DNA of 19,489 nucleotides, from IMG/VR virus record IMGVR_UViG_2609459850_000001. One strand, given 5' to 3'. Shown piece by piece: positions 9,391-19,489 of this stretch. The DNA comes from a virus (Duplodnaviria > Heunggongvirae > Uroviricota > Caudoviricetes). Positions within the stretch are counted from its first letter, which is position 1. Every line of letters begins with the position of its first letter. The position numbers were made by a program, and so were the translations under genes. Under the pieces are notes generated by a model. That model worked only from the letters and a program-made list of their open reading frames with translations, was not told the DNA's origin and made no database searches.

Positions 9391-10134
9391 ATGACCACAC
9401 CAAATCCACTGGCAAAGACGAAAGGTGCGGGGACGACGTTCTGGATGTATACCGGCAACGGCGATGCGTTTGCGAACCCTTTGTCGGACACTGACTGGCT
9501 GCGTCTTGCGATGGTGAAGGATCTGCAACCTGGCGAAATGACCGCTGATGCAGAAGATGACACTTATCTCGATGATGAAGATGCAGACTGGAAAACGACA
9601 ACCCAGGGGCAGAAATCCGTTGGTGATACTTCGGCGACGCTGGCCTGGCGTCCGGGTGACAGCGGGCAGAAAAAACTGGTTCAGTTGTTCGACTCCGGTG
9701 AAGTCTGCGCGTTTCGTATCAAATATCCCAACGGCACTGTTGATGTTTTCCGTGGCTGGCTGAGCTCACTGGGTAAAACCATTGCCTCAAAAGACGTGAT
9801 GACCCGCACTGTGAAAATCAGCGGTGTGGGGCGTCCGTATCTGGCAGAGGAAGGCACTGAAACCGTGAGCGTTACCGGGCTGACAGTATCACCGGCGTCT
9901 GCCAGTGTAAAAGTGGGAGCAACCACCACGCTGACCTTTACAGTAAAACCTGACGGAGCCAGTGACAAAGCGATCAGTGTGCATTCGTCAGATCCACAGA
10001 CTGCCACGGTTACCCTGAACGGACTTGTGGCCACGGTAAAAGGCGTGAAGCAGGGCAGTGTCAGCATTGTGGGCATGACCGCTGACGGGAATTTTGTGGC
10101 TGTGACTGCGGTGACTGTCAGCGCAGCAGGTTAA
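9391..10134 (+). CDS. V: major tail protein V with C-terminal Ig-like (Big_2) domain
   Basis: 247 aa with AAGGAGGT RBS. N-terminus MTTPNPLAKTKGAGTTFWMY and ...YPNGTVDVFRGW... match lambda gpV. The C-terminal roughly 90 aa are Thr/Val/Ser-rich, typical of an Ig-like domain. Confidence 0.9.
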   Translation: MTTPNPLAKTKGAGTTFWMYTGNGDAFANPLSDTDWLRLAMVKDLQPGEMTADAEDDTYLDDEDADWKTTTQGQKSVGDTSATLAWRPGDSGQKKLVQLFDSGEVCAFRIKYPNGTVDVFRGWLSSLGKTIASKDVMTRTVKISGVGRPYLAEEGTETVSVTGLTVSPASASVKVGATTTLTFTVKPDGASDKAISVHSSDPQTATVTLNGLVATVKGVKQGSVSIVGMTADGNFVAVTAVTVSAAG

Positions 10135-10154
10135 CAGGACGATACTCATCATTT

Positions 10155-10178
10155 GCCCCGGTTATGCGGGGCTTTTTT
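10155..10178 (+). terminator. intrinsic terminator-like hairpin after V (GCCCCG-GTTATG-CGGGGC + T6)
   Basis: 6-bp GC stem followed by TTTTTT, 21 nt after the V stop and immediately before the G RBS. Confidence 0.5.
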
Positions 10179-10194
10179 GCAGGTGGAGAACATG

Positions 10195-10581
10195 ATGTTT
10201 CTGAAACAGGACACGTTTAATTATGAAAAACAGTCCGTGGTGCTCAGTGAGCTGTCCGGGCTGCAGAGAATTGAATATCTGACGTTTGTTCAGCAGCGAA
10301 CGGCAAAGTTTGATGCCGGGGAGGGAGAACTGCCGGAGGCTGAACGACAGATTGCTTTTCTGCGGATGGGGATGGATATCAATGCCTGGCTGGTTTCCCG
10401 CTCACTGTGGAATGCGGATCAGTCTAAGGATGTAGAGACGCTTTGCGCATCCGTTATTACAACATGGTCGTATGATGCCCTGGGTGCGGGGGCGGAGATG
10501 GTTCTGTCGCTGAGCGGTATGGGGGCCATTGATAATGCCGTGGATGATGAGCATGAGGCGCTGACGCCGGAAAAGTCCTGA
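10195..10581 (+). CDS. G: tail assembly chaperone G
   Basis: The N-terminus MFLKQDTFNYEKQSVVLSELSGLQRIEYL matches lambda gpG (MFLKTESFEH…LSELSALQRIEHL). GGAGA lies 5 nt upstream of the ATG at 10195. The track's 10153 start falls inside the terminator. Confidence 0.85.
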   Translation: MFLKQDTFNYEKQSVVLSELSGLQRIEYLTFVQQRTAKFDAGEGELPEAERQIAFLRMGMDINAWLVSRSLWNADQSKDVETLCASVITTWSYDALGAGAEMVLSLSGMGAIDNAVDDEHEALTPEKS

Positions 10582-10919
10582 CGCGGGAAATGCAGTTTGT
10601 CATGCGGCTTGCCCGGGAGTTCCGGCGGGCAGACTGGCGGCGGATGCTGTCGGAAATGTCGGCCACTGAGCTTGGTGAGTGGGGCGATTATTTCCGGATG
10701 CAGAGCTTCAGTGATGTGTGGATGGATGCGCAGTTTGCCTCGCTGAAGGCATTGATCGTGAGAATGGTGTCCGGCAGCAGTGATGCTGCGGTGGCTGATT
10801 TCAGCCTTTTACCGGAAGAGAACGGGATACCGGAGCGAACGGACGAAGAACTGATGCATCTTGGGGAAGGTATTTCCGGAGGTGTGCGTTATGGACCAGA
10901 TAGCCAACCTGGTCATTGA
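10195..10919 (+). CDS. GT: tail assembly chaperone G-T, predicted -1 programmed frameshift product (shift around 10569-10575)
   Basis: The -1 frame is open from 10557 to the stop at 10917-10919 and overlaps the last 8 codons of G. The heptamer G GAA AAG (10569-10575) is one nucleotide different from the lambda site G GGA AAG. Gene order G-T-H as in lambda. Confidence 0.65.
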
Positions 10920-13900
10920 TTTGGGGATTGATGCGGCAGAGTTTAAAAATGAAATTCCCCGTATCAAAAACCTTCTGAATGGTGCAGCCAGCGATGCAGA
11001 ACGGTCTTCTGCCCGTATGCAGCGTTTTATGGAGCGTCAGACTCAGGCCGCCCGGCAGACAACGCAGGCAGCTTCTTCGGCTGCAACAGCCGCATCCGTC
11101 CATGCGCAGACGGTGGAGAAGAACGCACAGGCTCATGAACGCATGGCCCGCGAGGTGGAGAAAACCCGCCAGCGCATGGAGGCACTGAGCCAGAAAATGC
11201 GCGAGGAACAGGCGCAGGCCATGGCTCTGGCGGAGGCTCAGGATAAAGCGGCTGCTGCGTTTTATCGTCAGATTGACAGTGTGAAACAGGCCAGTGCGGG
11301 GCTGCAGGAATTACAGCGTATTCAGCAGCAGATCCGACAGGCCAGAAACAGTGGCGGGATTGGTCAGCAGGATTATCTGGCGCTGATTTCTGAGGTTACT
11401 GCGAAAACCCGTGTTCTTACACAGGCTGAGGAAGAGGCTACCCGACAGAAAGTGGCGTTTATCCGTCAGCTTAAAGAGCAGGCAACCCGCCTGAATCTTT
11501 CATCTTCTGAGTTGCTTCGTGCTAAGGCAGCCCAGCTGGGGGTAAGCAGTGCTGCAGAAGTGTATATCCGCAAAATGGAGCAGGCAGGAAAAGCCACGCA
11601 TTCGCTGGGTCTGAAAAGTGCAGCAGCCCGCCAGGAGATAGGCGTTCTGATAGGTGAACTGGCCCGCGGCAATTTAGGAGCGCAGAGGGGATCCGGGATA
11701 ACGCTGGCTAACCGTGCCGGATGGATAGACACACTGATGTCACCGAAAGGCATGATGCTTGGCGGGGTTATTGGCGGTATTGCCGCGGCCGTCTATGGTC
11801 TGGGTAAAGCCTGGTATGACGGTCAGAAGGAGGGGGAAGAATTTAACCGCCAGTTGTCGCTGACGGGGCATTATGCCGGAGTCACTGCCGGGCAGCTGTG
11901 GACGCTCAGTCGTGCTATTTCCGGGAATGGTATCACGCAACATGCTGCAGCCGGTGCGCTGGCTCAGGTGGTGGGGAGTGGTGCATTTCGTGGAAACGAT
12001 ATCGGTATGGTGGCGAGAGCTGCCGCACAGATGGAGCGATCGGTTGGCCAGTCGGTCAGCGATACCATAAATCAGTTTAAGCGGCTGAAGGATGATCCTG
12101 TAAATGCCGCGAAGGCTCTGGACAATGAGCTGCATTTTCTTACTGCCACTCAGCTTGAGCAGATACGCGTCCTTGGGGAGCAGGGGCGGTCCAGTGATGC
12201 TGCACGGATAGCCATGTCTGCACTGGCAGAGGAAACCGGTCGGCGTACTGCGGATATTGATAATAACCTCAATGCGCTTGGCAGTACGCTGAAGTATCTG
12301 TCTGATTTGTGGAGTCGTTTCTGGGATGCGGCCATGAATATTGGTCGTGAAGACTCGCTGGATGAACAGATTGCCGCTTTACAGGAGAAAGTGTCGCGGG
12401 CGAAAAGACTCCCCTGGACGGCATCATCTTCTCAGGTTGAATACGATCAGCAGCGTCTTAACGATCTTCAGGAGAAAAAACGCCAGAAGGATTTGCAGGA
12501 TGCAAAAGAGCAGGCAGAGCGGAATTATCAGGAGCAACAGAAACGCCGTAATGCTGAAAATGCTGCACTGAACCGGATGAATGAAACGGAAGCAGCACGA
12601 CATCAGCGTGAAATTGCGCGTATTAATGCCATGCAGTACGCCGATCAGGCTGTCAGGGATGCGGCGATACAACGTGAAAATGAACGTTACGAGAAAGCCC
12701 TGGCATCCGGTAAGAAAAAAACACGCGAAACCCGTAATGATGAGGCCACCCGGTTATTGCTGCAGTACAGTCAGCAACAGGCACAGGTGGAAGGACAGAT
12801 TGCTGCTGCCAGACAGTCAGCAGGCATTGCCACGGAAAGGATGACAGAAGCGCATAAACAGCTTCTGGCTCTGCAGCAGCGCATCAGCGACCTGGACGGG
12901 AAAAAACTGACGGCAGATGAAAAGAGTGTGCTGGCCCGTAAAGATGAACTGATTCAGGCACTGACGCTGCTGGATGTAAAACAGCAGGAGCTACAGAAAC
13001 AGACGGCACTCAACGAGCTGAAGAAAAAAACAATTCAGCTGACCAGTCAACTGGCTGAAGAAGAGCGCGCTCAGCGTCAGCAACATGACCTGGATATCGC
13101 CACGGTGGGTATGGGTGATCAGCAGCGACAGCGATATCAGGTACAACTGAGTCTTCGCCAGAAATACCAGCAACAGCTGGAGCAGTTGAGGCGAGATAGT
13201 GAGCAGAAAGGGACATATAACACGGATGACTACAGAAAGGCCGAGCAGGCGCTGACGGAGAGCCTGAACCGACAACTGAATGAGAATCGCCGTTACTGGC
13301 AACAGCTTGAAGTTGTGCAGGGTAACTGGAAAAACGGAGTCCTGCGTGCATTTCAGGATTTTACCGTGGATGCAGATAATACGGCAGAAACAGCAGAACA
13401 GGTGTTCTCGTCAGCCTTCAGCAACATGGGAAATGGCCTGGCAACTTTTGTCACTACCGGCAAACTCAATTTCAAATCCTTCACCTCTTCTGTGCTGTCA
13501 GATATGGCGAAAATCCTGGCGCAGGCAACCATGATGAAATCGATAAAAGGGATTGGCAGTGTACTGGGATTTGATCTCAGCAGCCTTTCCCTGAATGCCA
13601 ATGGGGGGATTTATCAGTCTGCTGATTTGAGTCGTTACAGTGGCACGGTGGTTAACCGTCCGACGTTTTTTGCTTTTGCAAAAGGCGCGGGTGTGATGGG
13701 GGAAGCGGGACCTGAAGCCATTCTGCCATTGCGTCGTGGTGCTGACGGTAAGCTGGGGGTTGTGGCGGATATTGGGGGTTCAGGTATGGCGATGTTTTCC
13801 CCGCAGTACAACATCGAGATCAATAACGATGGCACGAACGGGCAGATAGGTCCGGCTGCCCTGAAGGCGGTTTATGACCTCGGGAAAAAAGCGGCAGCGG

Positions 13901-13956
13901 ACTTTATGCAACAGCAGGCCCGTGATGGTGGTCGGTTAAGTGGAGCATATCGGTAA
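10891..13956 (+). CDS. H: tail tape measure protein H
   Basis: 1021 aa from the ATG at 10891 with GGAGG 8 nt upstream. N-terminus MDQIANLVIDLGIDAAEF resembles lambda H (MAEPVGDLVVDLSLDAARF), and the C-terminus NNDGTNGQIGPAALKAVYD...DGG matches the lambda H C-terminus. Long central coiled-coil-like Q/E/R/K-rich region. Confidence 0.9.
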   Translation: MDQIANLVIDLGIDAAEFKNEIPRIKNLLNGAASDAERSSARMQRFMERQTQAARQTTQAASSAATAASVHAQTVEKNAQAHERMAREVEKTRQRMEALSQKMREEQAQAMALAEAQDKAAAAFYRQIDSVKQASAGLQELQRIQQQIRQARNSGGIGQQDYLALISEVTAKTRVLTQAEEEATRQKVAFIRQLKEQATRLNLSSSELLRAKAAQLGVSSAAEVYIRKMEQAGKATHSLGLKSAAARQEIGVLIGELARGNLGAQRGSGITLANRAGWIDTLMSPKGMMLGGVIGGIAAAVYGLGKAWYDGQKEGEEFNRQLSLTGHYAGVTAGQLWTLSRAISGNGITQHAAAGALAQVVGSGAFRGNDIGMVARAAAQMERSVGQSVSDTINQFKRLKDDPVNAAKALDNELHFLTATQLEQIRVLGEQGRSSDAARIAMSALAEETGRRTADIDNNLNALGSTLKYLSDLWSRFWDAAMNIGREDSLDEQIAALQEKVSRAKRLPWTASSSQVEYDQQRLNDLQEKKRQKDLQDAKEQAERNYQEQQKRRNAENAALNRMNETEAARHQREIARINAMQYADQAVRDAAIQRENERYEKALASGKKKTRETRNDEATRLLLQYSQQQAQVEGQIAAARQSAGIATERMTEAHKQLLALQQRISDLDGKKLTADEKSVLARKDELIQALTLLDVKQQELQKQTALNELKKKTIQLTSQLAEEERAQRQQHDLDIATVGMGDQQRQRYQVQLSLRQKYQQQLEQLRRDSEQKGTYNTDDYRKAEQALTESLNRQLNENRRYWQQLEVVQGNWKNGVLRAFQDFTVDADNTAETAEQVFSSAFSNMGNGLATFVTTGKLNFKSFTSSVLSDMAKILAQATMMKSIKGIGSVLGFDLSSLSLNANGGIYQSADLSRYSGTVVNRPTFFAFAKGAGVMGEAGPEAILPLRRGADGKLGVVADIGGSGMAMFSPQYNIEINNDGTNGQIGPAALKAVYDLGKKAAADFMQQQARDGGRLSGAYR

Positions 13957-14294: not shown

Positions 14295-14993
14295 ATGCAG
14301 GATATTCCACAGGAAACACATCATGAGACGACACGCCTCACTCAGTCAGCCCAGGTGGTGCTCTGGGAAATCGATCTGACAGAGGTCGGTGGTGAACGTT
14401 ATTTTTTCTGTAATGAGCAGAACGAAAAAGGTGAGCCGGTTATCTGGCAGGGGCGGCAGTATCAGGTATACCCCATTCAGGGGACGGGATTTGAACTGAA
14501 CGGCAAGGGCAGTGCTGCCCGTCCGACACTGACGGTTTCTAACCTGCACGGCATGGTCACCGGGATGGCGGAAGACCTGCAGAGTCTGGTCGGAGGAATG
14601 GTGGTCCGGCGTAAGGTTTACGCCCGTTTTCTGGATGCGGTGAACTTCGTCAACGGAAACAGTGACGCCGATCCGGAGCAGGAGGTGATCAGCCGCTGGC
14701 GCATCGAGCAGTGCAGCGAACTGAGCGCGGTGAGTGCCTCTTTTGTACTGTCCACGCCGACGGAAACGGACGGTGCCGTTTTTCCGGGACGTATCATGCT
14801 GGCCAACACCTGCACCTGGACCTATCGCGGTGATGAGTGCGGTTATCACGGTCCGGCGGTCGCGGATGAATATGATCAGCCGACGTCCGATATCACGAAG
14901 GATAAATGCAGCAAATGCCTGAGCGGCTGTAAGTTTCGCAATAACGTCGGCAACTTTGGCGGCTTCCTTTCCATTAACAAACTTTCGCAGTGA
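14295..14993 (+). CDS. L: minor tail protein L
   Basis: 232 aa, the same length as lambda gpL, and near-identical over long stretches (SVVLWEIDLTEVGGERYFFCNEQNEKGEP, CTWTYRGDECGY, KCSKCLSGCKFRNNVGNFGGF). AGGAGG RBS. Confidence 0.95.
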   Translation: MQDIPQETHHETTRLTQSAQVVLWEIDLTEVGGERYFFCNEQNEKGEPVIWQGRQYQVYPIQGTGFELNGKGSAARPTLTVSNLHGMVTGMAEDLQSLVGGMVVRRKVYARFLDAVNFVNGNSDADPEQEVISRWRIEQCSELSAVSASFVLSTPTETDGAVFPGRIMLANTCTWTYRGDECGYHGPAVADEYDQPTSDITKDKCSKCLSGCKFRNNVGNFGGFLSINKLSQ

Positions 14994-14998
14994 ATCCC

Positions 14999-15742
14999 AT
15001 GACAGAGACAGAATCAGCGATTCTGGCGCACGCCCGGCGATGTGCGCCAGCGGAGTCGTGCGGCTTCGTGGTGAGAACACCGGAGGGGGAAAGATATTTT
15101 CCCTGCGTGAATATCTCCGGTGAGCCGGAGGAGTATTTCCGGATGTCGCCGGAGGACTGGCTGCGGGCAGAGATGCAGGGTGAGATTGTGGCGCTGGTCC
15201 ACAGCCACCCCGGTGGTCTGCCCTGGCTGAGTGAGACCGACCGGCGGCTGCAGGTGCAGAGTGATTTGCCGTGGTGGCTGGTTTGCCGGGGGGCGATTCA
15301 CAAGTTCCGCTGTGTGCCACATCTTTCCGGGCGGCGCTTTGAGCACGGGGTGACGGACTGTTACACGCTGTTCCGGGATGCTTACCATCTGGCGGGGATT
15401 GAGATGCCGGATTTTCATCGCGAGGATGACTGGTGGCGTAACGGTCAGAATCTCTATCTGGATAATCTGGAGGCCACAGGGCTGTATCAGGTGCCGTTGT
15501 CAGCGGCGCAGCCGGGCGATGTGCTGCTGTGCTGTTTTGGTTCATCGGTGCCGAATCATGCCGCCATTTACTGTGGTGACGGCGAGCTGCTGCACCATAT
15601 TCCTGAACAACTGAGCAAACGAGAGAGGTATACCGACAAATGGCAGCGACGCACACACTCCCTCTGGCGTCACCGGGCATGGCACGCATCTGCCTTTACG
15701 GGGATTTACAACGATTTGGCCGCCGCATCGACCTTCGAGTGA
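14999..15742 (+). CDS. K: tail assembly protein K (JAMM/MPN metalloprotease-like + NlpC/P60-like domains)
   Basis: The JAMM signature H-S-H-x7-S-x2-D (HSHPGGLPWLSETD) is present in the sequence, and a Cys (VTDCYTLF) / His pair sits in the C-terminal half. Start set at the first ATG (14999); a GTG at 14990 overlaps the L stop. The 3' end overlaps I by 103 nt in another frame. Confidence 0.85.
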   Translation: MTETESAILAHARRCAPAESCGFVVRTPEGERYFPCVNISGEPEEYFRMSPEDWLRAEMQGEIVALVHSHPGGLPWLSETDRRLQVQSDLPWWLVCRGAIHKFRCVPHLSGRRFEHGVTDCYTLFRDAYHLAGIEMPDFHREDDWWRNGQNLYLDNLEATGLYQVPLSAAQPGDVLLCCFGSSVPNHAAIYCGDGELLHHIPEQLSKRERYTDKWQRRTHSLWRHRAWHASAFTGIYNDLAAASTFE

Positions 15743-16287: not shown

Positions 16288-16347
16288 TGAAAAACGTTTT
16301 ATGTGAAACCACCTCCGGGCGGTTTTGTCGTTTATGGAGCGTTAGGA

Positions 16348-19300
16348 ATGGGTAAAGGCAGCAGTAAGGGGCATACCCCGCGCGAAGCGAAGGACAACCT
16401 GAAATCATCCCAGATACTGAGCGTGATAGACGCCATCAGTGAAGGGCCGGTTGAAGGTCCGGTGGACGGATTAAAAAGTGTGCTGCTGAACAGTACGCCA
16501 GTGCTGGACAGTGAGGGGAATACCAATATCTCCGGTGTCACGGTGGTGTTCCGGGCAGGTGAGCAGGAGCAGTCACCGCCGGAGGGATTTGAATCCTCCG
16601 GCTCCGAGACGGTGCTGGGTACGGAAGTGAAATACGACACGCCGATCACCCGCGCCATCACGTCGGCAAACATCGACCGACTGCGCTTTACCTTCGGTGT
16701 GCAGGCACTGGTGGAAACCACCTCAAAGGGGGACCGGAATCCGTCGGAAGTTCGCCTGCTGGTTCAGATACAGCGTAATGGTGGCTGGGTGACGGAAAAA
16801 GACATTACCATTAAGGGCAAAACCACCTCGCAGTATCTGGCCTCGGTGGTGGTGGATAACCTGCCGCCGCGCCCGTTTAATATCCGGATGCGCAGAATGA
16901 CGCCGGACAGCACCACAGACCAGCTGCAGAACAAAACGCTCTGGTCGTCATACACCGAAATCATCGATGTGAAACAGTGCTACCCGAACACGGCACTGGT
17001 CGGCGTGCAGGTGGATTCGGAGCAGTTCGGCAGCCAGCAGGTGAGCCGTAATTATCATCTGCGCGGGCGTATTCTGCAGGTGCCGTCGAATTATAACCCG
17101 CAGACGCGGCAATACAGCGGTATCTGGGACGGAACGTTTAAACCGGCATACAGCAACAACATGGCCTGGTGTCTGTGGGATATGCTGACCCATCCGCGCT
17201 ACGGCATGGGGAAACGTCTTGGTGCGGCGGATGTGGATAAATGGGCGCTGTATGTCATCGGCCAGAATTGCGACCAGTCGGTGCCGGATGGCTTTGGCGG
17301 CACGGAGCCGCGTATTACCTGTAATGCGTACCTGACCACGCAGCGCAAGGCGTGGGATGTGCTCAGTGATTTCTGCTCGGCGATGCGCTGTATGCCGGTA
17401 TGGAACGGGCAGACGCTGACGTTTGTGCAGGACCGGCCATCGGATAAGGTGTGGACCTATAACCGCAGTAATGTGGTGATGCCGGATGATGGCGCGCCGT
17501 TCCGCTACAGCTTCAGCGCCCTGAAAGACCGCCATAATGCCGTTGAGGTGAACTGGATTGACCCGAACAACGGCTGGGAGACGGCGACAGAGCTTGTGGA
17601 GGATACGCAGGCCATTGCCCGTTACGGTCGTAACGTCACGAAGATGGATGCTTTTGGCTGTACCAGCCGGGGGCAGGCACACCGCGCCGGGCTGTGGCTG
17701 ATTAAAACAGAACTGCTGGAAACGCAGACCGTGGACTTCAGCGTGGGCGCAGAAGGGCTTCGCCATGTGCCGGGCGATGTCATTGAAATCTGTGATGATG
17801 ACTATGCCGGTATCAGCACCGGCGGGCGCGTGCTGGCGGTAAACAGCCAGACCCGGACGCTGACGCTCGACCGTGAAATCACGCTGCCATCCTCCGGCAC
17901 CACGCTGATAAGCCTGGTTGACGGTGAGGGTAATCCGGTCAGCGTGGAGGTCCAGTCCGTCACCGACGGCGTGAAGGTGAAAGTGAGCCGTGTTCCTGAC
18001 GGCGTTGCTGAATACAGCGTGTGGGGGCTGAAGTTGCCGACGTTGCGCCAGCGCCTGTTCCGCTGCGTGAGTATCCGTGAGAACGACGACGGCACGTATG
18101 CCATCACTGCCGTGCAGCATGTACCGGAGAAAGAGGCCATCGTGGATAACGGGGCGCACTTTGACGGCGACCAGAGCGGCACGGTGAATGGTGTCACTCC
18201 GCCAGCAGTGCAACACCTGACCGCAGAAGTCACCGCAGACAGCGGGGAATACCAGGTGCTGGCGCGCTGGGATACGCCGAAGGTGGTGAAGGGCGTGAGC
18301 TTCCTGCTTCGCCTGACCGTGGCAGCGGATGACGGCAGTGAGCGGCTGGTCAGCACGGCCCGGACGACGGAAACCACATACCGCTTCACGCAACTGGCGC
18401 TGGGGCGTTACATGCTGACGGTCCGGGCGGTAAATGCGTGGGGGCTGCAGGGCGATCCGGCATCGGTATCGTTCCGGATTGCCGCACCGGCAGCGCCGTC
18501 TCGGATTGAGCTGACACCGGGCTATTTTCAGATAACCGCCACGTCACATCTTGCGGTTTATGACCCGACGGTACAGTTTGAGTTCTGGTTCTCGGAAAAA
18601 CGGATTACCGATATCAGGCAGGTTGAAACCACAGCCCGCTATCTTGGCACGGCGCTGTACTGGATAGCTGCCAGTATCAATATCAGGCCGGGCCATGATT
18701 ATTATTTTTACGTTCGCAGTGTGAACACCGTTGGCAAATCGGCATTCGTGGAGGCTGTTGGTCGGGCGAGCGATGATGCGGAAGGTTACCTGGATTTTTT
18801 CAAAGGCCAGATAACCGAATTCCATCTCGGCAAGGAGCTGCTGGAAAAAGTCGAGCTGACGGAGGATAACGCCAGCAAACTGGAGGAGTTTTCGAAAGAG
18901 TGGAAGGACGCCAGTGATAAGTGGAATGCCATGTGGGGCGTCAAAATTGAGCAGACCAAAGACGGCAAACATTATGTCGCGGGTATTGGCCTCAGCATGG
19001 AGGACACGGAGGAAGGCAAACTGAGCCAGTTCCTGGTTGCCGCTAACCGTATCGCGTTTATTGATCCGTCTAATGGCAACACAAGACCAATGTTTGTTGG
19101 TCAGGGCGATCAGATATTCATGAACGACGTGTTCCTGAAACGCCTGACGGCTCCGACCATTACCAGCGGCGGTAATCCTCCGGCATTTTCCCTGACACCG
19201 GATGGGCGGCTGACGGCGAAAAATGCCGATATCAGCGGTAACGTGAATGCGAACTCCGGGACGCTCAACAACGTCACGATTAACGAGAACTGTCGGGTTC

Positions 19301-19489
19301 TGGGAAAACTGTCCGCGAACCAGATTGAAGGCGATCTCGTTAAAACAGTGGGCAAAGCTTTCCCCCAGGACTCCCGTGCACCGGAACGGTGGCCATCAGG
19401 GACCATTACCGTCAGGGTTTATGACGATCAGCCGTTTGACCGGCAGATTGTTATTCCGGCGGTGGCATTCAGCGGCGCTAAACATGAGA
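16348..19489 (+). CDS. J: tail tip / central tail fibre protein J, 5' partial (about 1047 codons; continues beyond window end)
   Basis: ATG at 16348 with GGAG 8 nt upstream. The N-terminus [20 protein letters not shown]... and long internal stretches match lambda gpJ. There is no stop before the window end, so it is missing from the ORF track. Confidence 0.95.

What the first reader, a model, noticed from the sequence alone, without database searches (positions are those of the whole stretch)
10557..10590. G-T programmed -1 frameshift with a variant slippery heptamer (G GAA AAG) two codons before the G stop
The -1 frame opens at 10557 and runs into T (to 10919), overlapping only the last 8 codons of G. 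The only slippery candidate is G GAA AAG at 10569-10575, one nucleotide different from the lambda G GGA AAG site as I recall it. P-site re-pairing of the Glu tRNA on GGA would need a non-standard middle-position pair, so efficiency may differ from lambda's roughly 4 percent. No obvious strong downstream stimulatory structure was identified by eye.
Basis: partly seen in the sequence, partly recalled or inferred. Interest (0 to 1): 0.5.

Follow-up and report, generated by a model that had tools for sequence, protein, structure and literature searches.

The report
Phage tail chaperone G-T frameshift site
This is the usual programmed -1 ribosomal frameshift that fuses the two tail-assembly chaperone genes (G and T) of a lambda-like E. 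coli phage; its GGAAAAG slip site is real and well conserved, but it is already annotated in phage N15 and common in relatives, so it is ordinary.

Summary
G (PF06894) ends at TGA 10579-10581. The -1 frame opens at 10557 and runs to 10919 as T (PF06223). The only in-phase -1 slip candidate in the 25-nt overlap is G GAA AAG at 10569-10575.

The window matches phage PhiR55_1 at 100% and mEp460 at 99.3%. The G-T stretch occurs in 1846 of 5426 complete E. coli genomes.

The heptamer sits at the position homologous to lambda's proven G GGA AAG site. A modelled 241-aa fusion aligns end to end with lambda gpGT and the N15 gp14-15 fusion.

GGAAAAG is not rare. In my biased sample of 271 related loci it is used by 12 of 17 lineages. 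It is also present in N15, HK225, phi80, mEp043 and Fels-1. The N15 GenBank record already labels GGAAAAG as "slippery sequence for -1 translational frameshift".

Heptamer position 1 is G in all 15 lineages where the preceding codon could end otherwise. This favours slippage of both tRNAs, with tRNA-Glu re-pairing on GGA through a middle G:U pair.

ATG 10590 is not conserved. I found no conserved downstream structure and no significant upstream SD-like element.

One point of interest remains. A reconstituted-system study used G GAA AAG as its "unfavourable" control. No efficiency was measured here, and I found no in vivo measurement of this heptamer in the papers I could search.

The parts
10195..10581 (+). 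Gene G, tail assembly chaperone (128 aa; an alternative ATG lies at 10192). The 0-frame product ends ...ALTPEKS*.
   Evidence: Translation. Pfam PF06894 Phage_TAC_2, E 3.7e-40. Annotated as G or minor tail protein in PhiR55_1 and mEp460.
10554..10556 (+). TGA in the -1 (T) frame. It closes that frame upstream, so any shift must occur between 10557 and 10581.
10569..10575 (+). Slippery heptamer G GAA AAG. In the 0 frame Glu (GAA) is in the P site and Lys (AAG) in the A site. After a -1 slip they pair with GGA and AAA.
   Evidence: It is the only in-phase candidate in the overlap. GGNAAAR is the most conserved nucleotide block of the junction in 16 lineages. GGAAAAG is annotated as the slippery sequence in N15.
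10579..10581 (+). G stop codon TGA, one codon after the heptamer.
10575..10919 (+). T segment read in the -1 frame after the slip. The first codon is GTC at 10575-10577 and the stop is TGA 10917-10919. The modelled fusion join(10195..10575,10575..10919) is 241 aa.
   Evidence: Pfam PF06223 Phage_tail_T, E 5.1e-15. The fusion aligns over residues 1-236 with lambda gpGT (34%, E 1.8e-42) and the N15 gp14-15 fusion (36%, E 2.6e-39).
10590..10592 (+). ATG used as the T start in database annotations. It is probably an internal Met of the fusion, not a start codon.
   Evidence: Annotated as the start in mEp460, PhiR55_1 and Tritos. The ATG is not conserved in relatives, which have CTG, CGC, CAT and other codons there. 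There is no ATG, GTG or TTG in the -1 frame between 10557 and 10589.
10555..10558 (+). SD-like GAGG, 10 nt upstream of the heptamer. It is a possible weak stimulator but is not supported statistically.
   Evidence: Sequence and duplex scan. A synonymous-codon shuffle control across lineages was not significant, Fisher p = 0.72.
10155..10178 (+). Context: a terminator-like hairpin plus T run between V and G.
   Evidence: It is annotated as a rho-independent terminator in mEp460 and as a putative terminator stem-loop in N15.
10891..13956 (+). Context: tape measure gene H. Its start overlaps the last 29 nt of T.
   Evidence: Pfam TMP_2, Tape_meas_lam_C and TMP_4. The start was mapped from the mEp460 and PhiR55_1 annotation.

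Best explanation
Most ribosomes translating G read CCG GAA AAG TCC and terminate at TGA 10579, which gives gpG (128 aa). A small fraction slips back one nucleotide while tRNA-Glu and tRNA-Lys occupy GAA and AAG.

After the slip, tRNA-Lys (mnm5s2UUU) re-pairs perfectly on AAA. tRNA-Glu (mnm5s2UUC) re-pairs on GGA, keeping pairs at positions 1 and 3 with a G:U pair in the middle. Translation then continues with GTC CTG ACG... to 10919.

The product is a 241-aa gpG-T fusion (...ALTPEK-VLTREMQFVMRLAREF...). By analogy with lambda, gpG and the G part of gpGT coat the tape measure protein H, the T part recruits the major tail protein V, and a low GT:G ratio is needed.

What is shown here: the frame geometry, the homology, and the conservation of the heptamer including its first G. 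What is inferred: that the fusion is made, that both tRNAs slip, and that the efficiency is low.
For: - Gene order is V-G-T-H with PF16461, PF06894, PF06223 and TMP families.
- T lies in the -1 frame and has no start codon between the frame opening and 10589.
- In the 25-nt overlap only G GAA AAG allows A-site re-pairing.
- Among 271 related loci grouped into 17 lineages at 80% identity, the aligned position always carries GGNAAAR or A AAA AAC. GGAAAAG is in 12, GGGAAAG (lambda) in 1, GGCAAAA+TAG in 2 and GGGAAAA+TAG in 1. This is the most conserved nucleotide block while the G tail upstream varies freely.
- The codon before the heptamer encodes A, L or P but ends in G in 15 of 15 lineages with a free choice. 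The product of the codon-usage probabilities is 2e-7 if the lineages were independent.
- AAG, the minor Lys codon, is used in 13 of 16 lineages.
- T-frame residues are conserved from the Lys onward ([VAI]xxxExxF..LARE).
- The modelled fusion is collinear with lambda gpGT and the N15 gp14-15 fusion.
- The N15 record annotates GGAAAAG as the -1 slippery sequence. HK225 annotates T as the downstream half of the frameshift product.
- Literature: A_AAG is the most shift-prone tetramer in E. coli (Sharma 2014, PMC4066793). The lambda G/GT mechanism and its 30:1 ratio are in Atkins 2016, PMC5009743. About 96% of lambda ribosomes stay in the 0 frame (Maynard 2012, PMC3296357).
Against: - There is no experimental evidence for this locus. 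No database record of this phage group annotates a joined CDS.
- In a reconstituted E. coli system, AUG GAA AAG gave mainly the 0-frame product and was described as unfavourable for slippage (Peng 2019, PMC6924986).
- Tetramers without a stimulator are near background in vivo.
- I found no significant stimulator. The downstream fold has z = -1.09, the consensus fold gives -1.5 kcal/mol with no covarying pairs, and the upstream SD-like test gives p = 0.72.
- Two lineages use G GCA AAA, where the P-site tRNA cannot re-pair beyond position 1. Two-tRNA re-pairing is therefore not universal in the family.
- The lineages are not phylogenetically independent, and my choice of query proteins biased the sample.
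Confidence: 0.85

Rival explanations
1. The shift happens at the same place but only tRNA-Lys slips. It moves from AAG to AAA on the A_AAG tetramer, in the A site or in the P site before the next tRNA arrives. tRNA-Glu does not contribute any re-pairing.
For: A_AAG is the best -1 tetramer in E. coli, and CGA_AAG-type sites are used naturally (Atkins 2016). Some T-family lineages have G GCA AAA or G GGA AAA directly followed by TAG, which looks like P-site slippage at a stop codon. [quoted passage not shown]
Against: Heptamer positions 1 and 2 (GG) are invariant in all 16 lineages, and position 1 is a synonymous site of a variable amino acid. That is unexpected if only A_AAG mattered. Tetramers alone are close to background in vivo.
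Confidence: 0.15
2. T is made as a separate protein from ATG 10590, by independent initiation or by re-initiation after the G stop 8 nt upstream, as the database records annotate it. No frameshift is needed.
For: In this sequence an ATG lies 8 nt after the TGA, and GGGA precedes it. All records of this phage group and PGAP annotate T as its own CDS.
Against: - The ATG is absent at that position in most lineages, and a second Met (FVM) is also not conserved.
- The T frame always opens upstream of the G stop and overlaps G in the -1 frame.
- T-frame residues before the ATG are conserved.
- GGGA lies only 1 nt from the ATG, which is a poor SD spacing.
- In lambda, T is made only as the G-T fusion (Atkins 2016).
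Confidence: 0.06
3. The -1 shift is produced by RNA polymerase slippage on the A run (deletion of one A in the mRNA), not by the ribosome.
For: The site contains an A run (AAAA).
Against: The run is only four A's. Relatives conserve G GNA AAR, not a longer homopolymer.
Confidence: 0.01

Closest known systems
Phage lambda G / G-T programmed -1 frameshift (G GGA AAG; Levin, Hendrix and Casjens 1993, cited via PMC5009743 and PMC3296357)
   Same: - Same gene order, V-G-T-H.
- Same Pfam families.
- T lies in the -1 frame and overlaps the 3' end of G.
- The heptamer sits at the homologous aligned position.
- The Lys AAG to AAA slip is the same.
- No downstream structure was found here either.
- The modelled fusion aligns end to end with lambda gpGT.
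   Different: - The P-site codon is GAA (Glu) rather than GGA (Gly). Re-pairing therefore has a middle-position G:U pair instead of a third-position wobble.
- The G stop lies 1 codon after the heptamer, against 5 in lambda.
- Overall protein identity is only 34%.
Phage N15 genes 14/15 (GenBank NC_001901, misc_feature 'slippery sequence for -1 translational frameshift' = GGAAAAG); also HK225, phi80, mEp043 and Fels-1
   Same: The heptamer G GAA AAG is identical and sits at the same aligned position of homologous G and T genes.
   Different: - The codon before the heptamer is GCG in N15, HK225, phi80 and mEp043, and CCG here and in Fels-1.
- The G stop lies 5 codons after the heptamer in N15, HK225, phi80 and mEp043, and 1 codon after it here and in Fels-1.
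- The fusion is 36% identical to the N15 fusion.
E. coli dnaX A AAA AAG, and the A_AAG tetramer or CGA_AAG sites of IS1222 and Bacillus cdd
   Same: They rely on the shift-prone single tRNA-Lys (mnm5s2UUU) moving from AAG to AAA. The CGA_AAG sites also have imperfect or no P-site re-pairing.
   Different: dnaX and the IS elements use strong stimulators (an upstream SD plus a hairpin or pseudoknot) and reach high efficiency. No stimulator was detected here.
PRFect 'twofour' slippery motif class (McNair et al. 2024, PMC10885494)
   Same: The paper names a non-canonical 'twofour' backward motif found in annotated tail-chaperone frameshifts. It also discusses tRNA-Glu re-pairing on GGA through G:U. 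By its name, GGAAAA would fit this class.
   Different: I did not see the motif definition, which is in a supplementary figure. The class is purely computational and was derived mainly from actinobacteriophages.

Membership tests
Lambda-type G/G-T tail assembly chaperone with programmed -1 frameshift | Two short ORFs lie between the major tail protein gene and the tape measure gene. | tested here: met
   V ends at 10134 (Phage_TTP_12). G is 10195-10581, T runs to 10919, and H starts at 10891 (TMP_2, Tape_meas_lam_C).
Lambda-type G/G-T tail assembly chaperone with programmed -1 frameshift | The upstream ORF is homologous to gpG and the downstream ORF to gpT. | tested here: met
   PF06894 at E 3.7e-40 and PF06223 at E 5.1e-15. 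BLASTP of the modelled fusion against lambda gpGT gives E 1.8e-42.
Lambda-type G/G-T tail assembly chaperone with programmed -1 frameshift | The second ORF is in the -1 frame relative to the first and is open across the end of the first. | tested here: met
   The -1 frame opens at 10557 and the G stop is at 10579-10581, a 25-nt overlap. The same geometry is seen in all relatives checked.
Lambda-type G/G-T tail assembly chaperone with programmed -1 frameshift | A slippery sequence lies in the overlap at the position homologous to the proven lambda site. | tested here: met
   G GAA AAG at 10569-10575 aligns with lambda G GGA AAG and is identical to the annotated N15 slip site.
Lambda-type G/G-T tail assembly chaperone with programmed -1 frameshift | The second ORF has no conserved start codon of its own. 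| tested here: met
   There is no ATG, GTG or TTG in the -1 frame from 10557 to 10589. ATG 10590 and the next Met are not conserved across 16 lineages.
Lambda-type G/G-T tail assembly chaperone with programmed -1 frameshift | A G-T fusion protein is made at a few percent of G and is required for tail assembly. | not testable with these tools
   This needs a reporter assay, a western blot or mass spectrometry, plus genetics.
Canonical X_XXY_YYZ tandem-slippage heptamer | Both the P-site and the A-site tRNA keep standard pairing at codon positions 1 and 2 in the -1 frame. | tested here: not met
   The P-site codon GAA becomes GGA, so codon position 2 (G) faces U35 of tRNA-Glu, a G:U pair in the middle position. 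This follows directly from the sequence, and Peng 2019 state the same for this sequence. The A-site AAG to AAA move is fully cognate.
Stimulated -1 PRF signals (dnaX or IS3 type) | A downstream hairpin or pseudokonot, or an upstream SD-like element, at the proper spacing. | tested here: inconclusive
   - The downstream fold has z = -1.09 and the flanked fold z = +0.68.
- The consensus fold of 16 lineages gives -1.5 kcal/mol with no covarying pairs.
- GAGG lies 10 nt upstream, but the excess over synonymous shuffles is not significant, p = 0.34 for this lineage and 0.72 combined.

The most novel reading that the evidence does not exclude
GGAAAAG has been used in biochemistry as a nearly non-slippery control. 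In my sample it is nevertheless the commonest natural G-T shift site, and its first G is under nucleotide-level selection.

This would mean that in vivo a P-site tRNA-Glu with a middle-position G:U pair supports a biologically tuned level of -1 frameshifting, or that an unrecognised stimulator compensates. Candidates are the nascent G tail motif E-x-x-[ST]-x-E-K, the stop codon one codon downstream, or the GAGG 10 nt upstream.

Both slipping tRNAs (Glu and Lys) carry mnm5s2U34. This class of site could therefore be more sensitive than lambda's to the host's tRNA thiolation state.
Probability: 0.2. Interest if true: 0.4.

Novelty: already known. Interest (0 to 1): 0.2.

Why it matters
There is little new biology here. 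The G-T frameshift is a textbook case, and the GGAAAAG form is already marked in the N15 record.

The practical value is for annotation:
- The phage records I inspected (mEp460, PhiR55_1, Tritos, Ayreon) and the 8 listed PGAP E. coli rows annotate T as a free-standing CDS. Most start it at an internal Met, which is ATG 10590 here.
- The stretch occurs in 1846 of 5426 complete E. coli genomes.
- A joined CDS, join(10195..10575,10575..10919), would be more accurate.

A modest open question remains. How efficient is G GAA AAG in vivo, and why does this heptamer predominate when in vitro work treats it as unfavourable?

Tried and rejected
1. **Upstream SD-like stimulator.** GAGG, GGAG or AGGA lies 8-12 nt upstream in many GGAAAAG lineages. 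Resampling synonymous codons while keeping the amino acids shows no excess (Fisher p = 0.72). The signal comes from a conserved Glu in the G tail.
2. **Downstream stimulatory structure.**
   - The MFE z-scores are -1.09 and +0.68.
   - The consensus fold of 16 lineages has 4 invariant pairs and no covariation.
   - The only hairpin starts directly after the heptamer, which is too close.
3. **Chance occurrence.** The motif count in the window is not significant, so I relied on placement and conservation instead.
4. **Independent T start.** Rejected on comparative grounds.
5. **Collision-stimulated frameshifting from a ribosome stalled at the G stop (Smith 2019).** That mechanism needs a spacing of 8-9 codons. 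Here the spacing is 2 codons, or 0 to 1 in some relatives.
6. **Literature search.** Searching for 'G GAA AAG' or GGAAAAG in a tail-chaperone context found only Peng 2019. Xu et al. 2004 is not held, so I could not check their table of slippery sequences.
7. **Scans that returned only near-identical loci.**
   - The first viral scan with the window's T and the scan with alignment A1 returned only near-identical loci.
   - Diversity came from distant T queries and the genome collection.
8. **Minus-strand ORFs at 16335-19406.** They have no Pfam hits and are probably antisense to a J-like gene that runs off the window.

Full report
**What the window is.** The G-T stretch (10153-10919) is 100% identical to Escherichia phage PhiR55_1. 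It is 99.3% identical to mEp460 and 98.8% to cdtI. At 95% identity or more it is present in 1846 of 5426 complete E. coli genomes.

Pfam places the genes in the classical lambda tail order:
- V, ending at 10134 (Phage_TTP_12 plus Big_2).
- G, 10195-10581 (Phage_TAC_2, E 3.7e-40).
- T, up to 10919 (Phage_tail_T, E 5.1e-15).
- H, from 10891 (TMP_2, TMP_4, Tape_meas_lam_C).

**Checking the observation.**
- G ends ...EHEALTPEKS with TGA at 10579-10581.
- The -1 frame is closed by TGA 10554-10556, opens at 10557 and runs to TGA 10917-10919.
- The overlap is 25 nt. In the 0 frame it reads GCG CTG ACG CCG GAA AAG TCC TGA.
- The only in-phase site where the A-site tRNA could re-pair in the -1 frame is G GAA AAG at 10569-10575.
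- Lambda has GCG GGA AAG at its site, a one-base difference.

GGAAAAG as a bare motif is not unusual, with 5 copies against 2.6 expected. By my arithmetic on the coordinates, only the 10569 copy is in phase within its gene.

**Comparative evidence.** I collected 271 loci encoding T relatives. They came from viral contigs, one genome per species, and named phages. For each locus I computed the T-frame opening, the G stop and the in-phase slip candidates.

At 80% identity of the G tail plus T there are 17 lineages:

| Heptamer at the homologous position | Lineages |
|---|---|
| GGAAAAG | 12 |
| GGGAAAG (lambda group) | 1 |
| GGCAAAA directly followed by TAG | 2 |
| GGGAAAA followed by TAG | 1 |
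| A AAA AAC (a distant metagenome bin) | 1 |

The GGAAAAG lineages include loci from Escherichia, Citrobacter, Klebsiella, Proteus and Providencia genomes. My choice of query proteins biases this sample.

Named phages add to the picture:
- N15, HK225, phi80, mEp043 and Fels-1 have GGAAAAG.
- Two Stx phages have A AAA AAG, and one Stx2a phage has GGGAAAG.
- Vibrio phages have C CCA AAA.

Anchored on the heptamer, GGNAAAR is the most conserved nucleotide block of the junction. The G tail upstream varies freely. The T-frame peptide is conserved from the Lys onward ([VAI]xxxExxF[VA]x[RKQ]LARE).

The ATG at 10590, and the next Met, are not conserved. There is no ATG, GTG or TTG in the -1 frame between 10557 and 10589. 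A modelled fusion, join(10195..10575,10575..10919), is 241 aa. It aligns in a single segment over residues 1-236 with lambda gpGT (34%, E 1.8e-42) and with the N15 gp14-15 fusion (36%, E 2.6e-39).

**Mechanism.** The codon that supplies heptamer position 1 encodes Ala, Leu or Pro (GCG, CTG, TTG, CCG). It ends in G in all 15 lineages where another ending was possible. Each locus's own codon usage puts the chance of a G ending at 0.19-0.64 per lineage. The product is 2e-7 if the lineages were independent, which they are not fully. AAG, the minor Lys codon, is used in 13 of 16 lineages.

This is nucleotide-level selection on the whole heptamer, not only on A_AAG. It favours tandem slippage:
- tRNA-Lys moves from AAG to AAA, which is fully cognate.
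- tRNA-Glu moves from GAA to GGA. It keeps the position-1 G:C pair and the position-3 pair, with G:U in the middle.

The GGCAAAA lineages keep only the position-1 pair and always abut a stop codon. Within the family there is therefore a range between two-tRNA slippage and Lys-only slippage at a stop.

**Stimulators.** None could be demonstrated.
- The downstream region does not fold better than shuffles (z = -1.09 and +0.68).
- A consensus fold of 16 lineages gives -1.5 kcal/mol with no covarying pair.
- A GAGG lies 10 nt upstream, a position where SD-like elements can stimulate -1 shifts. Similar elements occur in many lineages. A control that resamples synonymous codons shows no excess (combined p = 0.72). 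They derive from a conserved Glu in the G tail motif E-x-x-[ST]-x-[EGA]-K.

**What is known.** The lambda G/G-T frameshift and its roughly 30:1 product ratio are textbook (PMC5009743). About 96% of lambda ribosomes stay in the 0 frame (PMC3296357).

The N15 GenBank record carries a misc_feature, 'slippery sequence for -1 translational frameshift', at 10027-10033. That sequence reads GGAAAAG. HK225 annotates its T as the downstream half of the frameshift product. PRFect lists a non-canonical 'twofour' motif and discusses G:U re-pairing of tRNA-Glu on GGA. The variant is therefore already recognised.

By contrast, mEp460, PhiR55_1, Tritos, Ayreon and the 8 listed PGAP E. coli rows annotate T as a separate CDS.

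**The remaining point of interest.** Peng et al. 2019 (PMC6924986) used AUG GAA AAG as the 'unfavourable', one-tRNA control and saw mainly the 0-frame product. Sharma et al. 2014 found tetramers near background without a stimulator, and A_AAG at 5.6% with a pseudoknot. Yet this heptamer is the commonest natural G-T site in my sample.

I found no in vivo efficiency measurement for this heptamer in the papers I could search. Maynard et al. 2012 showed that loss of tRNA 2-thiolation raises lambda G-T frameshifting, and they name Lys, Glu and Gln as the tRNAs modified. Here both slipping tRNAs belong to that set. It is my inference that this class of site could be more sensitive to that host pathway.

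**Verdict.** The feature is an ordinary and already known kind, the N15-type form of the lambda G-T frameshift. Its main practical consequence is for annotation.

Noticed in passing
L087, L088, L186-L190 (CTG GCA AAA TAG); L091 (ATG GGA AAA TAG); L089, L092 (GGAAAAG followed by TAA or TAG): In several T-family lineages the shift heptamer directly abuts the G stop codon. In the GGCAAAA group the P-site tRNA-Ala cannot re-pair beyond position 1. All three AAA-ending lineages have TAG as the next codon. This suggests stop-codon-assisted slippage of tRNA-Lys as an alternative way of making G-T.
   Followed up: partly
L277, L281 (Stx phages); L279, L282 (Vibrio phages): At the homologous junction, Stx-converting phages use the dnaX-type A AAA AAG and Vibrio phages use C CCA AAA. 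Together with the types seen in the lineage survey (GGAAAAG, GGGAAAG, GGCAAAA, GGGAAAA), the family shows at least six heptamer types that all share A_AAR.
   Followed up: partly
window 10537-10575 and the aligned G tails of 16 lineages: The otherwise variable, acidic C-terminal tail of G ends in a conserved peptide motif E-x-x-[ST]-x-[EGA]-K. It reads EALTPEK here and EPVSAGK in lambda. It may be a linker or nascent-peptide feature at the shift site, and it explains the SD-like GAGG or GGAG strings upstream.
   Followed up: partly
window 10155-10178: A GC-rich hairpin followed by a T run lies between V and G. It is annotated as a rho-independent terminator in mEp460 and as a putative terminator stem-loop in N15. 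It could lower expression of G, T and H relative to the major tail protein.
   Followed up: no
window 10891-10919: The tape measure gene H starts inside the last 29 nt of T, so three reading frames are used within about 350 nt.
   Followed up: no
window 14346-15689 (-) and 16948-18393 (-): There are very long antisense ORFs of 447 and 481 aa. Pfam was run on the 481-aa ORF and three smaller minus-strand ORFs at 16335-19406 and found no hit; the 447-aa ORF was not tested. They lie opposite the M/L/K-like genes and a J-like gene that runs off the window, and are probably spurious.
   Followed up: partly
L084 (JAEWTL010000010.1, 'Bacillota bacterium' MAG) and L085 ('Proteobacteria bacterium' MAG): Two metagenome bins with these labels carry a T protein that is 98-100% identical to this E. 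coli prophage module. The Bacillota case in particular is likely mis-binning or contamination of the bin.
   Followed up: no
E. coli complete genomes: This G-T module occurs in 1846 of 5426 complete E. coli genomes, with up to 6 copies per genome. In the 8 rows listed it is annotated as two separate CDS with no ribosomal-slippage join.
   Followed up: partly
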